A stretch of DNA of 43,773 bases, taken from Patescibacteria group bacterium. Its GTDB lineage: Bacteria; Patescibacteriota; Patescibacteriia; Patescibacteriales; UBA12075. The notes under the pieces were generated by a model, which was not told the origin of the DNA, made no database searches, and saw nothing but the letters and a program-made list of their open reading frames with translations. The position numbers and the translations under genes are program-made. Shown here piece after piece: positions 6,549 to 43,773 of this stretch. Positions within the stretch are counted from its first letter, which is position 1. The number at the start of each line of letters is the position of its first letter. The stretch lies in the NCBI GenBank assembly GCA_022705905.1, contig JAKJDO010000005.1, positions 1-43,773 on the forward strand, in the 5' to 3' direction.

Positions 6549-8015
6549 CTAAATTTTTGGGAAGATTTTTTTGAACGACGCGAATTTTGATTCGTTAGTA
6601 AAATGAGTAATTTTTTCTTTAGCTCGATTAGTTTTTACAAATTTTAGCCAATCTCGGCTTGGTCCCTTTCTTCTTTTATCAATTATTATCTCTGTCAGAT
6701 CACCGTTTTTTAAAGGGTGGTCTAGGGGCACCATTTTATTATTTACCAAGGCGCCGATAGCTTTATTGCCAATTTCGGTATGGACAGCATAAGCAAAATC
6801 AATAGGCGTTGAATCTTCCGGGAGATCAAAAACATCGCCTTTCGGAGAAAAAACAAAGATACGATCGTGGAAAATGTCTAATTTAATTTCTTTTATAAAA
6901 TCCTTATCTTCGTTTTCCTGTTTTAGAATATTGAGAATCTCTTTGACCCAGGCTGGCTGCCTTTCTTCATGATAATCAGAGCCGCTTCTTTGTTTATAAT
7001 ACCAGTGGGCGGCTATGCCGTAGTGGCTTTCTTCATTCATTTCTTCGGTTCTGATTTGGAATTCTGTTGGCTGGTTGTCTATGCCAAAAACAGTCGTGTG
7101 TAGACTGCGATAACCGTTAGGTTTCGGAACGGCTATATAATCTTTAATGCGGCCGACTTTAGGCTTCCAAATCGTATGGATTATGCCTAGGGTTTTATAG
7201 CAGTCAGGAATAGAGGGAACGATAATGCGCAGGGCGAACACATCAAGAATCTCATCAAATTTGCGGTCTTTAAGCTGCATTTTTTTATAAATACTGTAGA
7301 GATGCTTAAAGCGGCCTTCAACTTGATAGTCAATCCCGGCTTCAGATAATTTTTTACCCAAAGTATTTTTTACTTTTTGAATATATTGATTGCGTTCAAC
7401 CTTTTTTTCAACCTCGTATTTATAGAGTAATTTTTTGAATTCTTCCGGGTATAAATATTTAAAGCATAAATCTTCCATCTGCCATTTTAGCCTCCAAATA
7501 CCCAAAAGACCGGCAATAGGCGCGTAAATTTCTAGTGTTTCCCTGGCTATCCGTTGTCTTTTTTCTGTCGGCAAGGCGTCAAGTGTGCGCAAGTTATGTA
7601 AGCGGTCGCAAAATTTAATTAAAATGACGCGCAGATCTTCAGCCATAGCCAGGAACATTTTACGTAAATTCTCACGGTATCTTTCAACTCCGCGGTATTT
7701 TATTTTTCCTAATTTAGTAATTCCATGGACTAAGCTGGCAACGTCTTGGCCAAAATTTTTTTCGATTTCTTCCAGAGTAACTTCAGTATCTTCCGGCACA
7801 TCATGCAGTATGCCAGCGATGATAATTGTTAAATCTGCTTTCATCTGCGCCAACAAAAAAGCAGTATGCAGACTGTGCTGGATGTATGGCTCTCCGTTCA
7901 TCCTTTTTTGCCCTTTGTGAGCTTTATCGGCAAATTCATAGGCCAATTGTAACAAATCCGCGTCTGCTTGAGGGTCATTTTCTCTGACTTGATTAATAAT
8001 CTGGCCAATAGTCAT
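6549..8015 (-). CDS. rel: RelA/SpoT homolog (HD hydrolase + synthetase + TGS; no C-terminal ZFD/ACT domains)
   Basis: AHKGQKRMNGEPYIQH, LHDVPEDT, IKFCDRLHNLRTL, GRFKHLYSIYKKM, PKPNGYRSLHT, EFQIRT and TPIDFAYAVHT motifs; the protein ends right after the TGS domain. Confidence 0.93.
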   Translation of the reverse strand: MTIGQIINQVRENDPQADADLLQLAYEFADKAHKGQKRMNGEPYIQHSLHTAFLLAQMKADLTIIIAGILHDVPEDTEVTLEEIEKNFGQDVASLVHGITKLGKIKYRGVERYRENLRKMFLAMAEDLRVILIKFCDRLHNLRTLDALPTEKRQRIARETLEIYAPIAGLLGIWRLKWQMEDLCFKYLYPEEFKKLLYKYEVEKKVERNQYIQKVKNTLGKKLSEAGIDYQVEGRFKHLYSIYKKMQLKDRKFDEILDVFALRIIVPSIPDCYKTLGIIHTIWKPKVGRIKDYIAVPKPNGYRSLHTTVFGIDNQPTEFQIRTEEMNEESHYGIAAHWYYKQRSGSDYHEERQPAWVKEILNILKQENEDKDFIKEIKLDIFHDRIFVFSPKGDVFDLPEDSTPIDFAYAVHTEIGNKAIGALVNNKMVPLDHPLKNGDLTEIIIDKRRKGPSRDWLKFVKTNRAKEKITHFTNESKFASFKKIFPKI

Positions 8016-8071
8016 AAATTTAGACTAGTTTTTTTATCTAAACTTGTTTATAATAATAATTTTATGTTATA

Positions 8072-37853: not shown

Positions 37854-39004
37854 CAAACATTGAAGACCAATTGAATAAATTACCCAAAGGAAGATTGGGT
37901 CTTAAAGCAGATTGGCGTTTGCGTTTTGTTTTTTTAAGATTAAGGTGGCAAAAAAGATTTACCGAATATAGCTCTTTGTTAGTTATCAAGAAGATGGCGC
38001 CAGTTGTCATTGTGGCTGCTTTATTGTTGTCGTTGGTGTATTTACCTTACTATGCTTATGCCAGCGAAGGCGTTGTTAAGGGTAATATTTTATACCCAAT
38101 AAAACAAAGCATAGAAAAAATTGAATTAAGTTTAGCAGATACACCAGCTAAAAAAATAGAAGTTTACACAAAGTTGGCAGAGCGGCGCTTAGCAGAGGCT
38201 GAAAAATTGAGCGAGAAAGATTCTAAAACTGCCAATGACAACTTAGCATCTACGATTGATAATATGGCAGTTTTAACCGTAGAAGCTAGAGCGGAGATTG
38301 AGAATGAATTAAATTTAGAAAAAAAGGAGTGGGCAATCAACAAAATTGCACAGATAAAAGAACGGCAATTGGAAAAAATGGAAAAAATTGCTAATAGATT
38401 CGGGCTTCAGGCTAGCGACAACTTGCTTGATAGCTTAGCGTTAAATATTGACGATCTCAAAAAAGATAAACAAGAAAAAAATGATTTTACTCGCATTTTA
38501 TCTGAAGTAAGAGTCTCAACCACCACAAAAGATTATAGACTATTTTCGCAAATTAAAACAGAAATCTCAGGTTTAGCCACTGTTTCAACATCTACCGTTA
38601 TTATTGCCAAGCCAGGCAGTGCTAGTATAAAAATCGATCAAACAATTATAGCTGAATCTTGGGATAATGCCAACGATCAGATAGCCGCCCTCAAAGAAAG
38701 TTTATTAGCCCAAGGTGTTAGTGAAAATGAATTTAATAATTTATTTAATAAGTTAGATGACAGATTGAATAAAGCCCAAGACTCTATAAACTCGGGAAAT
38801 TTTATGCAAGCTGACGGCCTGATAAAATCTACGGAGGCTTTAAGCAATAACGCTAAACATTTTTTAAAATTTAATAATAAAGCAACCGGCAATATTTGGC
38901 AGGCCACCTCTTCTCCGAATCAAGCGACTAGCTCAATTAACAATTGGCGCAATGAAATAGAAAAAAGAATAAAAGATATGAGAGGACGCAGCAATAATCG
39001 GTAA
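37850..39004 (+). CDS. DUF5667-like single-TM protein, putative anti-sigma factor
   Basis: ATGA overlap with the sigma gene; TM helix then GNILYPIKQSIEKIELSL..KIEVYTKLAERRLAEA. Confidence 0.65.
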   Translation: MTNIEDQLNKLPKGRLGLKADWRLRFVFLRLRWQKRFTEYSSLLVIKKMAPVVIVAALLLSLVYLPYYAYASEGVVKGNILYPIKQSIEKIELSLADTPAKKIEVYTKLAERRLAEAEKLSEKDSKTANDNLASTIDNMAVLTVEARAEIENELNLEKKEWAINKIAQIKERQLEKMEKIANRFGLQASDNLLDSLALNIDDLKKDKQEKNDFTRILSEVRVSTTTKDYRLFSQIKTEISGLATVSTSTVIIAKPGSASIKIDQTIIAESWDNANDQIAALKESLLAQGVSENEFNNLFNKLDDRLNKAQDSINSGNFMQADGLIKSTEALSNNAKHFLKFNNKATGNIWQATSSPNQATSSINNWRNEIEKRIKDMRGRSNNR

Positions 39005-39074
39005 AAACAAACTATTGTCTAATAATAAAAAAAAGTGATAAAGTGAGAGTAAGAAGGGCTCTCACTTTGTTTAT

Positions 39075-39887
39075 ATGAAAATAAAGACAAAAATTATATC
39101 AGCGTCCGTGTTTTCGATATTAGTAATTTTTGGGTTTATCGAATACACGACTGTTAATGATCGACAAATTTTTTTGCCTCCGGCGGATAAAAAAGAAGAA
39201 CAAGAAACAAAGAAGAAAATCGTCGAAATCCAAGCGCCAAAAATATTGCCGCCGTCGACAGATGATTTTAGAAATGACTTCAAGGGAGAAATTCGGGGTA
39301 CTTCGAGTACTATTTTATTGGACGTGCCGTTTACCTCGCAGGCCCCTTTTGGTGAGTGGGATGATCCTAGACAGCAAGACGGTTGTGAAGAGGCGTCAGT
39401 ATTGATGGCAATAGCTTGGGCAAGAGAAGAAGAATTGAACAAAGAAAATGCCAAAAAAGAAATATTAGCTATCGCTGAATATGAAAAAAATAAATACGGC
39501 AGTTTTGTTGATACTGACGTGCATGATACTGTAGACCGGATAATCCTTGGTTATTTTGGCTATGAAAAATCTAAAGCAATAGAGAATATTACTTTAGACA
39601 ATATCAAGGCCGAATTATACAAAGGCAATTTAGTTTTAGTTCCTTGTAACGGCCGTAAACTTGGCAACCCCAATTATACCCCGCCTGGTCCGGAACGGCA
39701 TATGCTTGTTATCCGCGGCTATGACCCTATAAAAAAAGAATTTATTACGAATGATGCTGGTACGCGCAAAGGCGAAGGTTATAGATATCAAGACGATGTT
39801 TTATATAAAGCAATAGTTAATTATCCAACCGGAGAACATATTCCAATAAAAGAAGAAAAGAAAGCAATGATTGTAGTTTGGAGATAG
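39075..39887 (+). CDS. Membrane-anchored peptidase C39-like protein
   Basis: LDVPFTSQAP, QQDGCEEAS (Cys), HMLVIRGYD (His/Asp) and FITND motifs; N-terminal TM helix. Confidence 0.85.
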   Translation: MKIKTKIISASVFSILVIFGFIEYTTVNDRQIFLPPADKKEEQETKKKIVEIQAPKILPPSTDDFRNDFKGEIRGTSSTILLDVPFTSQAPFGEWDDPRQQDGCEEASVLMAIAWAREEELNKENAKKEILAIAEYEKNKYGSFVDTDVHDTVDRIILGYFGYEKSKAIENITLDNIKAELYKGNLVLVPCNGRKLGNPNYTPPGPERHMLVIRGYDPIKKEFITNDAGTRKGEGYRYQDDVLYKAIVNYPTGEHIPIKEEKKAMIVVWR

Positions 39888-39948
39888 GGCTTGAAAAATA
39901 GTAGGCAATAATTTAAAATAATTTAACTATCTTAAAAGGAGGTGGCGC

Positions 39949-40098
39949 ATGGCATATCACAATCTCGAGAAGTCGTTTTTTTATCGTCTGGAGATGTTTG
40001 CCAGGTACATGAGATTGCTTTGTCGTGAAATTGAAAACAGGCTGATGTCTCGGCAGATCAGTGCGCGCTGCCCCGACGATCATGGGGATTTCTTTTAG
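39949..40098 (+). CDS. Small hypothetical protein (49 aa)
   Basis: Manual translation: MAYHNLEKSFFYRLEMFARYMRLLCREIENRLMSRQISARCPDDHGDFF*. AAGGAGGTG SD at 39936-39944; TTGAAA-17 bp-TAAAAT upstream. Confidence 0.6.
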   Translation: MAYHNLEKSFFYRLEMFARYMRLLCREIENRLMSRQISARCPDDHGDFF

Positions 40099-40114
40099 CC
40101 CCCAGCTGTGACGA

Positions 40115-40158
40115 AGGCCGAGCCCATTTACATTAACACTTGGGCTCGGCCTCTTTTT
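40115..40158. terminator. Terminator hairpin between two convergent small ORFs
   Basis: Perfect 12-bp stem AGGCCGAGCCCA (40115-40126) / TGGGCTCGGCCT (40141-40152) followed by a T tract. Confidence 0.8.
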
Positions 40159-40343
40159 TAGAACACCCTGTCATCATTTTTTAACTTTGGCAGAAATACT
40201 CCGATGGACGGATCACATGTTCTTATGTAATCTATTGTTTCGGAAATAATCAGATCAGATCTGGGAGAGAGGCATAAACAGACTCGTTGGATTTCTGCAA
40301 TTATTTTTACCATGTTTATGTCTTTGATGTCTGGGGTTTCCAT
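40158..40343 (-). CDS. Small hypothetical protein (61 aa)
   Basis: GAGGAGGT SD precedes the ATG at 40343 (METPDIKD...), so this start is preferred over 40388. Confidence 0.55.
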   Translation of the reverse strand: METPDIKDINMVKIIAEIQRVCLCLSPRSDLIISETIDYIRTCDPSIGVFLPKLKNDDRVF

Positions 40344-40416
40344 CGCAACCTCCTCTTTATTTAATATGGACAAAATTAAACTAGCCATTTAGCTAGCTTA
40401 ATTTTTTATTTTAAAA

Positions 40417-40659
40417 TTATTTTTTTCGCATCTTGCTGATACCAATGGCAGCGGCGATTAAGGCAGCTGCGCCAGCTACGCCAGCAACTACTTGTTTTTT
40501 AGTCTTGTCGTCGACTTTATCATATTTCTTTTTAGCTTCCTTAGCTAAATTAACCAGTTCATCAGTTACTCTTTTGATCTCAATAGCAATCTGATCGGTT
40601 GGTTTTTTATTTTTGTTTGGCGTCCTGGCGTTTTTTGCGTTAGTTTTTTTAGTAGGCAT
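40417..40659 (-). CDS. Small Lys-rich protein with C-terminal hydrophobic helix
   Basis: 80-aa ORF; basic N-terminus and a VVAGVAGAAALIAAAIG segment. Confidence 0.7.
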   Translation of the reverse strand: MPTKKTNAKNARTPNKNKKPTDQIAIEIKRVTDELVNLAKEAKKKYDKVDDKTKKQVVAGVAGAAALIAAAIGISKMRKK

Positions 40660-40792
40660 AAGTTTTATAATTGAATTATTCTCTAATATAATTATAATAC
40701 AAATTTTATTAAAATTAAATGAGTGTTTGTATTTTTCTAAAAATAGTGATAATCTTAAATATTATTTGATTTTATAGGGGAAGGAGAAGAAA

Positions 40793-41470
40793 ATGGAAGA
40801 CCAGGGCAACAGCCGCATAGTTAATTGTCTTGATGAAGGTATCTTAATATCGCTTGAAGAGGGGGATGTTTCTTTTGAAGAGTATGCCAAGATCGTTGAT
40901 CATTGCATGTCATGCAGAATCTGCGCTCAAGTATTTGCAGGTAGGGAGCGGGAAATTAGAGGACGGCGTCCGCAAGCAGTTCCCATCTTTGCCCTGAATG
41001 CTCCGTCGAGGTTCGGTTGTTTGACGGTTGAAGAAATTGTTCATTTTAAATCAAATCACCAACGAATGTCAAAAATCTACACCGATTATGTTGTTACGCA
41101 TAGTTGCTCATGTCCAAGGTGTTATGAAATAAGCTATCAATTGAAAGGTTTTGAGGCCAGCGATGACATGGACCACTCCTTTGTTTGTATACCTTTACGT
41201 TCCGTGGTGAACGATTTAATGCTGAAGCAGATTGTAGGAGATGATGGCTTTAGATCTATATGCTTAGATTTGGAATGCGAGATGTACGAACTTTTTGGTA
41301 AAAAAATCGAAATCGTTGATTTTTGCGATTATGCTTACCAAATAGGCGTTACCGAATCTAAGGCTGTGCTATTGGATTATCGTGGAAGTGATGTTGCTGG
41401 TAAGCGATTTCGAGTGAGCCTTGTTGAATATGAGGAGGGGGCATATTGCGAAGACATATCTTCATTCTGA
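40793..41470 (+). CDS. Hypothetical protein with two HxxxCxxC (zinc anti-sigma-like) motifs
   Basis: HCMSCRIC and HSCSCPRC, each preceded by a similar helix; AAGGAG SD; downstream hairpin at 41485-41509. Confidence 0.65.
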   Translation: MEDQGNSRIVNCLDEGILISLEEGDVSFEEYAKIVDHCMSCRICAQVFAGREREIRGRRPQAVPIFALNAPSRFGCLTVEEIVHFKSNHQRMSKIYTDYVVTHSCSCPRCYEISYQLKGFEASDDMDHSFVCIPLRSVVNDLMLKQIVGDDGFRSICLDLECEMYELFGKKIEIVDFCDYAYQIGVTESKAVLLDYRGSDVAGKRFRVSLVEYEEGAYCEDISSF

Positions 41471-41572: not shown

Positions 41573-43773
41573 ATGAATAAAAAAAATAATAATAAAAGCG
41601 AAGAAGCCGTCAGCCCTTTTCCGAAAGTGGAAGAGGATGTTTTGCGATTTTGGCAGAGTAATAAAATTTTTGAAAAATCAGTAAAAAAAGAAGCGCCGCA
41701 AGGAAGTTATATTTTTAATGACGGCCCACCGTTCATAACCGGTTTGCCTCATTATGCTACATTACTGCCTAGTGTTGCTAAAGATGTTGTGCCGAGATAC
41801 TGGACAATGAAGGGTTGTCGAGTAGAAAGAAAATGGGGGTGGGATTGCCACGGTCTACCAGCCGAAAATAAAGTTGAAGGGCAACTTGGTTTAAAAAACA
41901 AAAAGGATATAGAAGATTTAGGTGTGGGTAAATTTGTTGATGCTTGTCGAAATTATGTTAAAGAAGGATCTGATCAGTGGCGTTGGTATATAGATCGCAT
42001 CGGTCGCTGGGTTGATATGGACAACGCTTATCGCACGATGGATTTAAATTTTATGGAAAGTGTTATCTGGGCGTTTAAAAAGCTGTATGACGATGGCTTT
42101 ATTTATGAAGGCTATCGGACGTCTTTGCATTGTCCACGCTGCGCTACTCCTTTGTCAAAATTTGAAATAACTATGGATGCTGGTTCTTATCGCGATATAA
42201 CTGAACCTTCAGTAACCGTAAAATTTAAAGTCGTTGGCAAAGAAAATGAATATTTATTAGCCTGGACAACTACTCCCTGGACTTTGCCTGGCAATTTAGC
42301 TTTGGCAGTCGGCGAAAAAGTAAAATACATTAAAGCGGAAGTTGACGGTGAGATTTTGATTTTAGCGAAAGATCGAATGGGAGAAATTTTACAAGATAAA
42401 AAGTATAAAATTGCTAAGGAGTTGTCTGGTAGCGATTTGATTGGTGAGCAGTATGAACCTTTATATATTTTGAACAGTGAAGAAATAAGAAAAAATTACA
42501 ACGTATATAAAGTTTATGGCGCCAATTTTGTAACTACTGAAGATGGTACCGGCATTGTTCATATAGCCCCAAATTTTGGTGAAGATGATTTCGAATTAGG
42601 CAAGGTAATTGGTTTGCCGATGGTTGATTTAATGGACGAGAATGGAATATATGCTAAAGAAGCTGGGCAATGGCAGAATTTTTATTTTAAAAAAACCGGC
42701 GAAGCCGTTAAAGAAGATCTGCAAAAAAGAAATATAATTTTTTCAGTTTTTGACGTCACTCATCCTTATCCTTTCTGCTATCGTTGTAATACTTCTTTAA
42801 TTTACAGAACACAGAAAGCTTGGTATTTGAAAATTGATAAAATTAGGGGAAAACTTGTTGAGACTAATAAAGAAATAAATTGGGTACCGGAATATTTCAA
42901 AGAAGGGCGTTTTCAATTTAACCTAGAATCAGCTCCTGATTGGTGTTTATCGAGGTCACGATATTGGGGCTCGCCTATACCGGTTTGGCGTTGTCAGAAT
43001 TGTGAAGAGGTGAAAGTCGTTGGTTCTCTTAAAGAAATAGAAAAGTTGAGCGGAAAAAGAATTAATGATTTACATCGTCCAGGCATTGATGAGATTGAAT
43101 TCAGATGCGATAAGTGCGGCAAGACAATGAAAAGAGTGCCGGAAGTTTTAGATTGCTGGTTTGAATCTGGCTCAATGCCTTTTGCTCAGTGGCATTATCC
43201 TTTTGAGCGAGAAGCTGATTTTAAAAATATTTTCCCGGCTGATTTTATAGTTGAATATACTGGTCAACTGCGCGGTTGGTTTTATTACCTACATGTTTTG
43301 TCTAATTGTTTGTTTGAATCTTTGTCATACAAGAACGTTATTGTGACAGGCGTTTTAGCTGGTACGGATGGTCGTAAAATGAGCAAATCTTTTGGTAATT
43401 ATCCTGACCCACGATTAGTACTGGAAAAATATGGTAGTGATGCTTTGCGCATGTATTTTATGAGCAGTTCGATTATGATGGGGGACGATACTAGCTTATC
43501 GGAGAAGGATATTCAGGATTCTTTACGTAAGAATGTAATGATTTTATGGAATATTTATAATTTTTACTCCATGTATGCTAACTATGAGAATCGAAATATT
43601 AGTTCTCTAGAAAGCGACAAAGAAACAGCTGAGAAATTCCTCGCTGACGCTCGGAATGACAACGTACTTGATAAATGGATTTTAGCCAAATTAAATCAAC
43701 TGATTTTTGAGGTAACTGGTAATTTAGAAAAATATCATTTGCCGGCAGCCGCAAATGATATTTTTCTAAATTA
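41573..43773 (+). CDS. ileS: Isoleucine--tRNA ligase type 2 (IleRS2); 3' end runs off the window
   Basis: Manual translation: DGPPFITGLPHYAT, GWDCHGLPAE, AWTTTPWTLPGN, GTGIVHIAP, DWCLSRSRYWGSPIP, DCWFESGSMP, GQLRGWFY, GRKMSKSFGNY and LDKWIL. Absent from the ORF track because there is no stop in the window. Confidence 0.96.
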   Translation, partial: MNKKNNNKSEEAVSPFPKVEEDVLRFWQSNKIFEKSVKKEAPQGSYIFNDGPPFITGLPHYATLLPSVAKDVVPRYWTMKGCRVERKWGWDCHGLPAENKVEGQLGLKNKKDIEDLGVGKFVDACRNYVKEGSDQWRWYIDRIGRWVDMDNAYRTMDLNFMESVIWAFKKLYDDGFIYEGYRTSLHCPRCATPLSKFEITMDAGSYRDITEPSVTVKFKVVGKENEYLLAWTTTPWTLPGNLALAVGEKVKYIKAEVDGEILILAKDRMGEILQDKKYKIAKELSGSDLIGEQYEPLYILNSEEIRKNYNVYKVYGANFVTTEDGTGIVHIAPNFGEDDFELGKVIGLPMVDLMDENGIYAKEAGQWQNFYFKKTGEAVKEDLQKRNIIFSVFDVTHPYPFCYRCNTSLIYRTQKAWYLKIDKIRGKLVETNKEINWVPEYFKEGRFQFNLESAPDWCLSRSRYWGSPIPVWRCQNCEEVKVVGSLKEIEKLSGKRINDLHRPGIDEIEFRCDKCGKTMKRVPEVLDCWFESGSMPFAQWHYPFEREADFKNIFPADFIVEYTGQLRGWFYYLHVLSNCLFESLSYKNVIVTGVLAGTDGRKMSKSFGNYPDPRLVLEKYGSDALRMYFMSSSIMMGDDTSLSEKDIQDSLRKNVMILWNIYNFYSMYANYENRNISSLESDKETAEKFLADARNDNVLDKWILAKLNQLIFEVTGNLEKYHLPAAANDIFLN
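43631..43661 (+). repeat. REP-like half element embedded in frame in ileS
   Basis: GAGAAATTCCTCGCTGACGCTCGGAATGACA ends in the same G-A-T-G-A-C-A-type terminus (GGAATGACA) as the intergenic elements (GGGATGACA); translated as EKFLADARND. Confidence 0.5.

What the first reader, a model, noticed from the sequence alone, without database searches (positions are those of the whole stretch)
41735..41770. IleRS2 with a non-canonical HIGH motif, HYAT
Seen: DGPPFITGLP-HYAT-LLPS (codons 41750-41761) where IleRS2 normally has HYGH; KMSKS and the editing motifs are intact. Known: the HxGH Gly and second His line the ATP pocket, and a rearranged signature (GxHH/ALHH type) in some IleRS2 enzymes confers mupirocin hyper-resistance. 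Inference: loss of both the Gly and the second His is a different active-site solution that could change ATP handling or inhibitor sensitivity, and may be lineage-specific.
Basis: partly seen in the sequence, partly recalled or inferred. Interest (0 to 1): 0.65.

Follow-up and report, generated by a model that had tools for sequence, protein, structure and literature searches.

The report
IleRS lacking second HIGH histidine
The only isoleucyl-tRNA synthetase of this tiny-genome (Patescibacteria) bacterium really reads HYAT where the textbook HIGH motif sits; this is no error but the conserved signature of a large, undescribed enzyme branch, shared with ultra-small archaea, that has also lost the aspartate that normally holds the ATP ribose.

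Summary
Codons 41750-41761 (CAT TAT GCT ACA) encode H-Y-A-T in the HIGH position of a type-2 IleRS. It is the only ileS in a 99%-complete genome of 0.95 Mb.

HYAT is not an error. 104 of the 120 closest database clusters read HYAT; the other 16 read HYGT, HYGS, HYAS or HFAT, and none has the second His. Seven genomes encode HYAT with different synonymous codons.

Trees place the gene in a fully supported clade that is uniformly HY[A/G][T/S]. Gly and Ala at position 3 toggle about ten times, so that change looks near-neutral. Thr or Ser at position 4 never reverts.

The ribose motif E-G-x-D-Q has become E-Y-T-G-Q (43253-43267), losing the Asp that binds ribose O2'.

The type is rare and patchy: about 9% of sampled Patescibacteria species lack His4, and 1.5% have HYA[T/S]. 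It differs between species of one genus and also occurs in an archaeal contig, which points to gene replacement by transfer.

My reading is a working housekeeping enzyme with a remodelled adenylate pocket. Effects on ATP or inhibitor binding are untested. I found no paper describing it.

The parts
41573..43771 (+). ileS, N-terminal 733 aa of a type-2 isoleucyl-tRNA synthetase. The gene runs off the window (contig C7) and continues on contig C22 of the same assembly. A near-identical full-length form, P0001, is 984 aa.
   Evidence: (TIGR00392, 740.7 bits). The AF2 model of P0001 has pLDDT 85.8 and its best fold matches are IleRS2 structures: 8C8V TM 0.85, 8WND TM 0.88.
41720..41773 (+). HIGH-loop context DGPPFITGLP-HYAT-LLPS. 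Ile55 (PPF-I-TG) replaces the usual Ala.
   Evidence: A55I is fixed in the clade, against Ala in 90% of HxGH relatives.
41750..41761 (+). Signature motif H60-Y61-A62-T63 in place of H-x-G-H. The first His is kept, Gly is Ala, and the second His is Thr.
   Evidence: In the 69-sequence alignment A1, H60 and Y61 are invariant, T63 is at least 90% conserved, and A62 is variable (A/G). The ungapped alignment to T. thermophilus HVGH 54-57 is.
43253..43267 (+). Ribose/amino-acid motif E561-Y562-T563-G564-Q565 in place of E-G-x-D-Q. Gly becomes Tyr and the ribose-O2'-binding Asp becomes Gly.
   Evidence: ungapped against 'aegidqtrgwf' of 1ILE and 8C8U; E561, Y562 and Q565 invariant. Residue roles come from the Ca IleRS:Ile-AMP structure paper PMC7191050.
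43376..43390 (+). Canonical KMSKS loop (aa 602-606).
   Evidence: K602, M603, S604 and K605 are invariant in A1. The loop has low pLDDT, as expected for a mobile loop.
42146..42166 (+). CP-core motif TPLS-K-FE. Lys196 replaces the usual Asn and is a weak candidate for a compensating positive charge.
   Evidence: K in 100% of the HYA[TS] group, N in 81% of HxGH. K accompanies the Thr4 lineages but not the Ser4 lineages, and it also occurs in a few HxGH enzymes, so the link is not clean.
42263..42589 (+). CP1 editing domain with intact Thr-rich (WTTTPWTLP) and GTGIVHIAPNFGEDD motifs.
   Evidence: T232-T234, H330 and D339 are invariant in A1.

Best explanation
This is the working, housekeeping type-2 isoleucyl-tRNA synthetase of a Patescibacteria bacterium. 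It belongs to a distinct and so far undescribed sub-branch of IleRS2, found in Patescibacteria and in DPANN-like archaea, whose adenylate-binding pocket was remodelled in steps.

1. In a wider 'EY' branch, the ribose motif E-G-x-D-Q became E-Y-x-(A/G)-Q. This removes the Asp that H-bonds ribose O2' and places a Tyr two residues upstream.
2. Inside that branch, PPF-A-TG became PPF-(I/V)-TG, and the second His of H-x-G-H, which H-bonds the adenylate phosphate, was replaced by Thr or Ser (rarely Asn).
3. In the core clade, position 3 became free to alternate between Gly and Ala.

Shown: the sequence states, their conservation, their nesting on the tree, single-copy status, and an intact fold, KMSKS loop and editing site.

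Inferred: the catalytic first His and the KMSKS loop carry the chemistry. The Thr/Ser hydroxyl substitutes, directly or through water, for the His-phosphate contact, and the Tyr hydroxyl may take over ribose binding. Ala is tolerated because IleRS2 holds the motif about 1.7 A further from the adenine (Brkic 2023) and because the bulky His4 is gone.

The gene type spreads by replacing resident HYGH-type ileS genes, even between species of one genus and across domains. Whether the remodelling is adaptive (for example against adenylate-mimic inhibitors) or tolerated drift is open.
For: Single copy:
- The only other class-Ia hits in the 99%-complete genome are LeuRS, ValRS and MetRS.
- A TIGR00392 search finds one ileS.

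Conservation under selection:
- Of the 120 closest clusters, 104 read HYAT, 9 HYGT, 4 HYGS, 2 HYAS and 1 HFAT; none has His4.
- All 120 have EYx[G/A]Q.
- Synonymous codons differ among seven genomes.
- H60, Y61, E561, Y562, Q565 and K602-K605 are invariant in A1.

Nesting on the trees (trait columns removed):
- FastTree, 171 rows: the core clade has support 100, lies inside a 64-row clade (99), which lies inside an 82-row EY clade (99).
- IQ-TREE LG+G4, 98 rows: the corresponding supports are 100, 99 and 97.
- Gly/Ala at position 3 changes 11 times, almost all in the His4-less background; only one HYAH occurs among about 93 HxGH rows.

Residue roles in a solved IleRS2-type enzyme (PMC7191050):
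- The His64 side chain H-bonds the Ile-AMP phosphate.
- Asp571 and the Gly569 NH bind O2', Glu568 binds O3', and Gln572 binds the Ile carbonyl.

Room at position 3 in IleRS2: PMC10485003.

Fold:
- The AF2 model has pLDDT 85.8 and pTM 0.81.
- The helix starts at residue 61; a strand ends at E561 and a helix starts at G564, as in solved IleRS.
- Best structural matches are IleRS2.

Patchy distribution:
- In an even sample of 137 resolved Patescibacteria species, 67 are HxGH, about 58 G/AxHH, 10 HxG[STN] and 2 HYA[TS].
- In the own order, about 6 of 80 other genomes carry the type.
- In the own family, only G201 shares it.
- G201 and G214, of one genus, differ.
- An archaeal contig carries a 69%-identical HYAT/EYTGQ gene between prefoldin and Pno1-type KH genes.
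Against: - No enzymology exists for any member, so activity, Km(ATP) and inhibitor sensitivity are all inferred.
- I could not inspect model coordinates. The proposed Thr63-phosphate and Tyr562-ribose contacts are untested geometry.
- The independent-contrast test found no same-branch coupling between His4 loss and Asp loss. The order 'Asp first, His later' rests on nesting alone.
- His4 was also lost in three singleton lineages that keep the Asp: L044, P0186 and P0214.
- The candidate compensator Lys196 is inconsistent across lineages.
- The close-homolog search is word-seeded and could over-sample HYAT. The unbiased samples show the type is a minority.
Confidence: 0.8

Rival explanations
1. 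Adaptive inhibitor escape. The EYxGQ + HY(A/G)(T/S) pocket was selected because it weakens binding of natural adenylate-mimicking IleRS inhibitors (mupirocin-like or Ile-AMP analogues) more than binding of the substrates. It would then be a third resistance-type signature beside HxGH and G/AxHH, and this advantage would explain why the gene spreads horizontally and displaces HYGH copies.
For: Motif rearrangement in IleRS2 is a proven resistance route: G/AxHH raises Ki up to 10^3-fold (PMC10485003). The monic-acid part of mupirocin occupies the Ile/ribose pocket (PMC7191050), so losing the ribose-binding Asp and the phosphate-binding His should cost inhibitor contacts. The gene type replaces resident copies within a genus and crosses domains. 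One genome bin (G164) holds both a HYAT-type and a HYGH-type ileS, which recalls the Bacillus IleRS1+IleRS2 pairs.
Against: No inhibition data exist. The same contacts are lost for the true intermediate Ile-AMP, so selectivity is not obvious. No producer, biosynthetic cluster or efflux gene lies near the gene. The type is rare, about 1.5% of sampled species, which argues against a strong general advantage. The G164 double copy may be bin contamination (3%).
Confidence: 0.2
2. Tolerated drift. In slow-growing, small-population episymbionts the second His and the ribose Asp are dispensable enough that their loss was fixed by chance. The enzyme is simply a somewhat poorer IleRS, and the motif has no special functional meaning.
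For: Position 3 toggles freely. His4 has been lost repeatedly in IleRS2, with at least 9 changes on the tree. It has also been lost in another class-Ia enzyme of the same phylum: MetRS reads HIGF in this genome and in about 13 of 30 sampled Patescibacteria. Human MetRS is naturally HLGN (PMC8216282), so the fourth position is intrinsically less constrained.
Against: Position 4 is not free. In the core clade it is only Thr or Ser (120 of 120) and never reverts to His. Tyr562 and Gly564 are invariant or nearly so. This pattern indicates a constrained alternative state, not decay. Horizontal spread of a merely poorer enzyme over resident canonical copies is hard to explain.
Confidence: 0.35
3. 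Non-catalytic or degraded copy. The HYAT gene is a pseudo-synthetase, or a paralog with another role, and charging of tRNA-Ile is done by another gene that is missing from the assembly.
For: The two textbook ligand-binding residues are missing. The assembly is in 42 contigs and the gene itself is split over two contigs.
Against: The genome is 99.2% complete and has no other IleRS-like gene. The first His, KMSKS, the Ile-pocket Gln, the editing motifs and full-length type-2 architecture are all conserved. Four other genomes with this type (G156, G171, G201, G098) also have one ileS only.
Confidence: 0.03
4. Sequencing or assembly error at 41756-41761.
For: None beyond the unusual residues. The window end does show a short contig-end artefact: the last 7 aa differ from contig C22.
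Against: The identical motif is present in more than 100 independent clusters and in seven genomes with different codons.
Confidence: 0.01

Closest known systems
Type-2 IleRS (IleRS2 / HUP-2) with canonical HxGH, e.g. Thermus thermophilus IleRS (1ILE/1JZQ), Priestia megaterium IleRS2 (8C8U/8C8V), and yeast and Candida cytosolic IleRS (8WND, 6LDK)
   Same: Same family, domain order and fold. Sequence E-values are 1e-197 to 1e-205 against IleRS2 and 1e-60 to 1e-86 against IleRS1. TM-scores are 0.85-0.88. It shares the PPFxTGxPH context, KMSKS, the editing site, and a type-2 C-terminus without a Cys cluster.
   Different: H-x-G-H reads H-Y-A-T and E-G-x-D-Q reads E-Y-T-G-Q. The phosphate-binding His and the ribose-binding Asp of the solved enzymes are therefore both absent.
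IleRS2 with the non-canonical G/AxHH signature (Deinococcus radiodurans ALHH, Streptomyces griseus; Brkic et al. 2023, PMC10485003)
   Same: A natural, clade-wide departure from the class I signature in a housekeeping IleRS2. Both occur only in the IleRS2/HUP-2 background and both are common in Patescibacteria, where about 58 of 137 sampled species are G/AxHH.
   Different: G/AxHH swaps positions 1 and 3 and keeps two His residues. Here position 1 keeps its His, no His moves to position 3, and the fourth His is lost. On the tree the G/AxHH sequences are a separate group used as outgroup. G/AxHH enzymes keep E-(A/G)-x-D-Q. Hyper-resistance is demonstrated for G/AxHH and is untested here.
Class I synthetases with a natural non-His fourth position, e.g. 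human MetRS HLGN (PMC8216282). From memory, not checked here: bacterial TrpRS TIGN and Thermus GluRS HVGT.
   Same: They show that a class I enzyme can work with Asn or Thr in place of the second His.
   Different: These are other families. Within IleRS, the papers I could search describe only HxGH and G/AxHH.
MupA/MupB plasmid-borne mupirocin-resistant IleRS
   Same: IleRS2-type sequence; partial matches of 552-558 bits.
   Different: Far below the 1900-bit cut-offs of NF000257 and NF000258. It is not a member.

Membership tests
Isoleucyl-tRNA synthetase (NCBIfam TIGR00392 ileS) | Whole-protein score above the curated cut-off of 621.4 bits | tested here: met
   740.7 bits for the truncated 733-aa ORF. 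The genome-wide search gives the same single locus.
Type-2 IleRS (IleRS2 / HUP-2) | Closer in sequence and fold to IleRS2 than to IleRS1 | tested here: met
   PDB sequence E-values are 1e-197 to 1e-205 for IleRS2 and eukaryotic enzymes, against 1e-60 to 1e-86 for IleRS1. Foldseek TM is 0.85-0.88 against 0.66-0.72.
Type-2 IleRS (IleRS2 / HUP-2) | Type-2 C-terminal domain without the zinc-binding Cys cluster of IleRS1 | tested here: met
   The C-terminal 299 aa on contig C22 contain only two isolated Cys. The model aligns over the full length with 8C8V, whose C-terminal domain is resolved.
Class I aminoacyl-tRNA synthetase signature | H-x-G-H (HIGH) motif | tested here: not met
   It reads H-Y-A-T. 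The first His is present; Gly and the second His are absent.
Class I aminoacyl-tRNA synthetase signature | KMSKS loop | tested here: met
   KMSKS at aa 602-606, invariant in the clade.
Class Ia ribose-binding motif (IleRS E-G-x-D-Q) | Asp that H-bonds ribose O2' (Asp571 in Ca IleRS, Asp553 in Tt IleRS) | tested here: not met
   E-Y-T-G-Q has Gly at the Asp position in an ungapped alignment. The residue's role is from PMC7191050.
G/AxHH hyper-resistant IleRS2 (Brkic 2023) | Gly or Ala at position 1 and His at position 3 of the signature | tested here: not met
   Position 1 is His and position 3 is Ala. The gene lies in a separate clade from the G/AxHH sequences.
G/AxHH hyper-resistant IleRS2 (Brkic 2023) | Millimolar Ki for mupirocin | not testable with these tools
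   Needs enzyme assays.
MupA / MupB (NF000257, NF000258) | Score above 1900 bits | tested here: not met
   551.7 and 557.6 bits.
Functional IleRS (activity) | Ile activation and tRNA-Ile charging | not testable with these tools
   Inferred from single-copy status and conservation.

The most novel reading that the evidence does not exclude
The Patescibacteria/DPANN 'EY' IleRS2 branch has rebuilt the adenylate site by relocating functional groups. A Tyr two residues upstream replaces the universal ribose-binding Asp, a positional swap analogous to HxGH->GxHH. A Thr/Ser hydroxyl replaces the phosphate-binding second His. On this reading the rebuilt pocket is a third natural IleRS2 signature type that confers strong intrinsic insensitivity to mupirocin-like and adenylate-mimic inhibitors, which would explain why it spreads horizontally and displaces canonical copies across species and even domains.
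Probability: 0.2. Interest if true: 0.75.

Novelty: new variant of a known kind. Interest (0 to 1): 0.5.

Why it matters
HIGH and the class-Ia ribose-binding Asp are among the most conserved catalytic features in biology, and they shape how IleRS inhibitors such as mupirocin are understood. The recent discovery that IleRS2 tolerates a swapped G/AxHH signature was judged 'highly surprising' and explained hyper-resistance (PMC10485003). This gene shows a second, different natural solution in a large branch of essential enzymes: no second His, no ribose Asp, and Gly optional.

The branch offers a ready-made series of natural intermediates: EGxDQ/HYGH, then EYxAQ/HYGH, then EYxGQ/HYG(T/S), then EYTGQ/HYAT. 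With this series one can test how much of the 'invariant' class I machinery is really needed, and whether such remodelling changes ATP affinity or inhibitor binding.

It also documents frequent replacement of an essential translation gene among ultra-small bacteria and archaea. If the enzyme turns out kinetically ordinary, the result still matters as a caution against calling class I synthetases inactive from signature motifs alone.

Tried and rejected
- **Host names.** The search for related loci on genome contigs chose generic peptide patterns. It returned mostly 41-48%-identical Clostridia and Saccharibacteria IleRS2 and only one HYAT-type locus, L177, so it was of little use for naming the clade's hosts.
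- **Co-evolution test.** An independent-contrast test for coupled loss of His4 and the ribose Asp was uninformative, because the two changes lie on different branches. I therefore claim nesting, not coupling.
- **Lys196 as compensator.** It accompanies the Thr4 lineages but not the Ser4 lineages, and it occurs in some HxGH enzymes. I keep it only as a weak candidate.
- **Literature searches on motif strings.** Searches for HYAT, HYGT, HXGT, HVGT, TIGN and similar returned almost only noise. A search combining IleRS with Patescibacteria/CPR/DPANN found nothing relevant.
- **DaIleRS2.** I could not determine the signature of this enzyme, the one DPANN IleRS2 characterised biochemically (PMC13752280). 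Whether a member of this branch has already been assayed is therefore unknown.
- **Structure model.** The AF2 model gave confidence values and topology only, with no coordinates, so the proposed Thr63 and Tyr562 contacts could not be measured.
- **RNA leader.** Rfam found no T-box or other RNA leader upstream of ileS.
Full report
**What is in the sequence.**
- The window ends inside a gene on the + strand, 41573..43771, giving 733 aa with no stop before the window end.
- It scores 740.7 bits on NCBIfam TIGR00392 (ileS, cut-off 621.4), well above the ValRS, LeuRS and MetRS models. Pfam finds tRNA-synt_1.
HYAT is aa 60-63, nt 41750-41761, CAT TAT GCT ACA.
- KMSKS (aa 602-606) and the CP1 editing motifs WTTTPWTLP and GTGIVHIAPNFGEDD are intact.
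- The window is contig C7 of a 949,608-bp, 42-contig assembly rated 99.2% complete. The gene continues on contig C22 (299 further aa).
- The only other similar genes are a LeuRS (HVGH), a ValRS (HLGH) and a MetRS. A search with the ileS family model also finds one ileS only. So there is no second, canonical ileS.

**Is HYAT real and conserved?**
- The 120 closest 90%-identity clusters in the 5.8-billion-protein collection are 62-99% identical. Their names include Patescibacteria, Falkowbacteria, Kuenenbacteria, Parcubacteria, and also Pacearchaeota and Nanoarchaeota.
- Among them, 104 read HYAT, 9 HYGT, 4 HYGS, 2 HYAS and 1 HFAT. None has a His at position 4.
- That search is seeded by shared words and could favour HYAT, so I added unbiased samples.
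- The best 150 representatives at 50% identity from an exhaustive HMMER scan show what is normal for IleRS2: HYGH 84, HFGH 8, about two dozen G/AxHH, and a minority of HYGS, HYGT, HHGT, HYGN, HVGN and HIGN among the nearest representatives.
- Seven genomes for which I hold DNA encode HYAT with different synonymous codons: Ala as GCT/GCG/GCC and Thr as ACA/ACT/ACG. The same holds for EYTGQ.

**A second departure in the same pocket.**
- In an ungapped alignment with T. thermophilus and P. megaterium IleRS2, the motif 'AEGIDQTRGWF' reads 'VEYTGQLRGWF' here, at aa 561-565, nt 43253-43267.
- In the Candida albicans IleRS:Ile-AMP structure, the fourth His of HIGH (His64) H-bonds a phosphate oxygen. 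Asp571 and the Gly569 amide bind ribose O2', Glu568 binds O3', and Gln572 binds the Ile carbonyl (PMC7191050).
- The window enzyme keeps the Glu and the Gln. It has Tyr at the Gly position and Gly at the Asp position, and Thr in place of the His.
- Every HxA[TS] sequence I collected has EYx[G/A]Q: 106 EYxGQ and 1 EYxAQ among the close homologs, plus all 6 from the genome samples. Most HxG[STN] sequences have it too.
- EYx[A/G/S/P]Q also occurs in many IleRS2 that still have HxGH, about 31 of about 100 representatives.
- Other substitutions fixed in the HYAT group are A55I, Y186H, N196K, an inserted G204, F360Y and T566L.

**Phylogeny.**
- I removed the nine trait columns before building trees.
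- A FastTree of 171 sequences and an IQ-TREE (LG+G4, SH-aLRT) of 98 sequences agree.
- The window's protein lies in a core clade with support 100 in both trees. Every member of that clade is HY[A/G][T/S] + EYTGQ.
- That clade lies in a larger, mostly His4-less clade (support 99 in both), which lies in the 'EY' clade lacking the ribose Asp (support 99 and 97).
- Parsimony counts on the large tree give 5 changes for Asp loss, 9 for His4 loss and 11 for Gly/Ala at position 3.
- The Gly/Ala changes are nearly all within the His4-less background. They include pairs only 0.1-0.2 substitutions per site apart, such as L149 HYAT / P0057 HYGT and L148 HYAT / P0062 HYGT.
- Among about 93 HxGH rows there is one HYAH. 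So Ala at position 3 looks conditionally neutral once His4 is gone. Thr/Ser at position 4 is held: 120 of 120 close homologs.
- His4 was also lost in three singleton lineages that keep the Asp (L044 HYGS, P0186 HYGN, P0214 HYGT).
- A contrast test found no same-branch coupling of the two losses. The order of events is therefore inferred from nesting only.

**Distribution.**
- In an even sample of 150 Patescibacteria species I resolved 137 IleRS signatures. They split as 67 HxGH, about 58 G/AxHH (including a large 'DGPITANNPMGVHH' group), 10 HxG[S/T/N] and 2 HYA[T/S].
- In the window's own order, 6 of 80 other genomes have the 66-71%-identical type. HYAT was verified in four of them. Most of the rest have about 50%-identical HYGH enzymes.
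- In its own family only G201 shares the type. G186, G165 and G214 read HYGH, and G186 and G226 read EGxDQ.
- G201 and G214 belong to one genus yet differ.
- One bin (G164) holds both a HYAT-type and a HYGH/EGSDQ ileS. G161 has an intact HYGH gene plus a broken copy.
- A 135.7-kb contig labelled 'uncultured archaeon' carries a 69%-identical HYAT/EYTGQ gene between a prefoldin gene and a KRR1/PNO1-type KH gene. Its 0.8-Mb genome encodes ribosomal protein L21e, a marker that rang only in the four archaeal controls.
- The named Nanoarchaeota and Pacearchaeota sequences (P0058, P0065, P0117) fall in one subclade nested inside the core clade.
- The gene type therefore moves horizontally and replaces resident ileS genes, within genera and between domains.

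**Structure.**
- An AlphaFold2 model of the 984-aa form, built from 69 aligned sequences, has mean pLDDT 85.8 and pTM 0.81.
- The long helix begins at residue 61, so His60 caps it as in solved IleRS. A strand ends at Glu561 and a helix starts at Gly564, matching the beta25/alpha19 arrangement described for Ca IleRS.
- Only the KMSKS loop and the termini are of low confidence.
- The best fold matches are P. megaterium IleRS2 (TM 0.85) and yeast IleRS (TM 0.88). T. thermophilus IleRS scores 0.88 when normalised to the target. All are ahead of IleRS1, at about 0.7.

**How it most likely works.**
- Shown: it is an essential, single-copy, full-length IleRS2 under purifying selection with an alternative, constrained pocket.
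- Inferred: the first His and KMSKS still stabilise the transition state.
- The hydroxyl of Thr63 (Ser in relatives) replaces, directly or through water, the His-phosphate H-bond.
- Tyr562 may supply the ribose contact lost with the Asp. This would be a positional relocation reminiscent of the HxGH->GxHH swap, in which the third-position His takes the place of the first (PMC10485003).
- Ala62 fits because IleRS2 holds the motif about 1.7 A further from the adenine (same paper) and His4 is absent.
- Human MetRS, with HLGN, shows that a class Ia enzyme can work without the fourth His (PMC8216282).
- Whether the change is adaptive (inhibitor escape) or tolerated drift cannot be decided from sequence. 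I give drift about 0.35 and adaptive escape about 0.2 as accounts of why it arose.

**Comparison with what is known.**
- Brkic et al. 2023 analysed 379 IleRS and reported only HxGH and G/AxHH.
- The 2026 study of 97,678 IleRS again treats 'HIGH' and 'GIHH' as the two groups. [quoted passage not shown]
- Full-text searches for the motif strings, and for IleRS together with Patescibacteria/CPR/DPANN, found no description.
- Earlier notes of this scan on related IleRS genes concern nested phosphatase domains and type-2 status, not this motif.
- I therefore file it as a new variant of a known kind. It is a member of IleRS2 by sequence and fold, but it fails the canonical HIGH and ribose-Asp features, and it is not a member of the G/AxHH or MupA/MupB groups.

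**Verdict.** It overweighted the Gly->Ala change, missed the larger EYTGQ change, and its functional consequences remain untested. Interest is moderate at 0.5. It would surprise aaRS specialists and is directly testable, but the fourth position has precedents for variation in other class I families.

Noticed in passing
G000:C17:20991-22409 (locus L258/L008), same genome, not in the window: The genome's MetRS reads H-I-G-F at its HIGH motif (TTTLPYINADPHIGFALE). In 30 MetRS genes from an even Patescibacteria sample, about 13-14 read HIGF or HVGF, one HIGY, one HLGS and one HIGN; the rest are HxGH. Loss of the fourth His is thus common in a second class-Ia synthetase of this phylum.
   Followed up: partly
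window 43751-43771 versus G000:C22:2-136 (L002/L147): ileS is split over two contigs. The last 7 residues of the window ORF (ANDIFLN) differ from the continuation on C22 (ARPISEF), while the preceding ~40 residues match. This is a contig-end assembly artefact, not a real gene end.
   Followed up: partly
L177:2980-6039 (contig CAZJGC010000001.1, 'uncultured archaeon', 135.7 kb): A 69%-identical HYAT/EYTGQ IleRS lies in an archaeal context: prefoldin at 795-1172 on the minus strand, a KRR1/PNO1-type KH gene at 7691-8050 on the minus strand, and L21e elsewhere in the 0.8-Mb genome. An essential synthetase is shared between Patescibacteria and DPANN-like archaea.
   Followed up: partly
L288 (G164:C13:1800-6200) and L148 (G164:C29); L289 (G161:C5): One genome bin of the same order holds both a HYAT-type ileS and a 1181-aa HYGH/EGSDQ ileS; this is either real co-existence or bin contamination (3%). 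Another genome has an intact HYGH ileS plus a second copy broken by stops and frameshifts. Both fit ongoing gene replacement.
   Followed up: partly
proteins P0206, P0251, P0254 (representatives): Some IleRS representatives show Trp wherever Gly is conserved (DWPPFITWTPHYWH, EWLDQ). These are probably genes from UGA=Gly (code 25) lineages that were translated with UGA=Trp in the source database.
   Followed up: no
proteins P0077, P0091: Two HYAT-type IleRS of 1214 and 1246 aa carry a histidine-phosphatase domain (PF00300). This is the nested-phosphatase design already noted by earlier agents in other Patescibacteria IleRS.
   Followed up: no
window 40793-41470 (+): A 225-aa Cys-rich ORF directly upstream of ileS (CMSCRIC, SCSCPRC motifs) has no Pfam match. 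No T-box or other Rfam RNA lies between it and ileS.
   Followed up: partly
G000:C16:~38312-40960 (L004-L006), same genome: The ValRS of this genome reads E-T-G-Y-E-I-I at the position where, from memory, ValRS usually has E-T-G-x-D-I-I. This may be a conservative Asp->Glu change at the equivalent ribose-binding position. Not compared with relatives.
   Followed up: no
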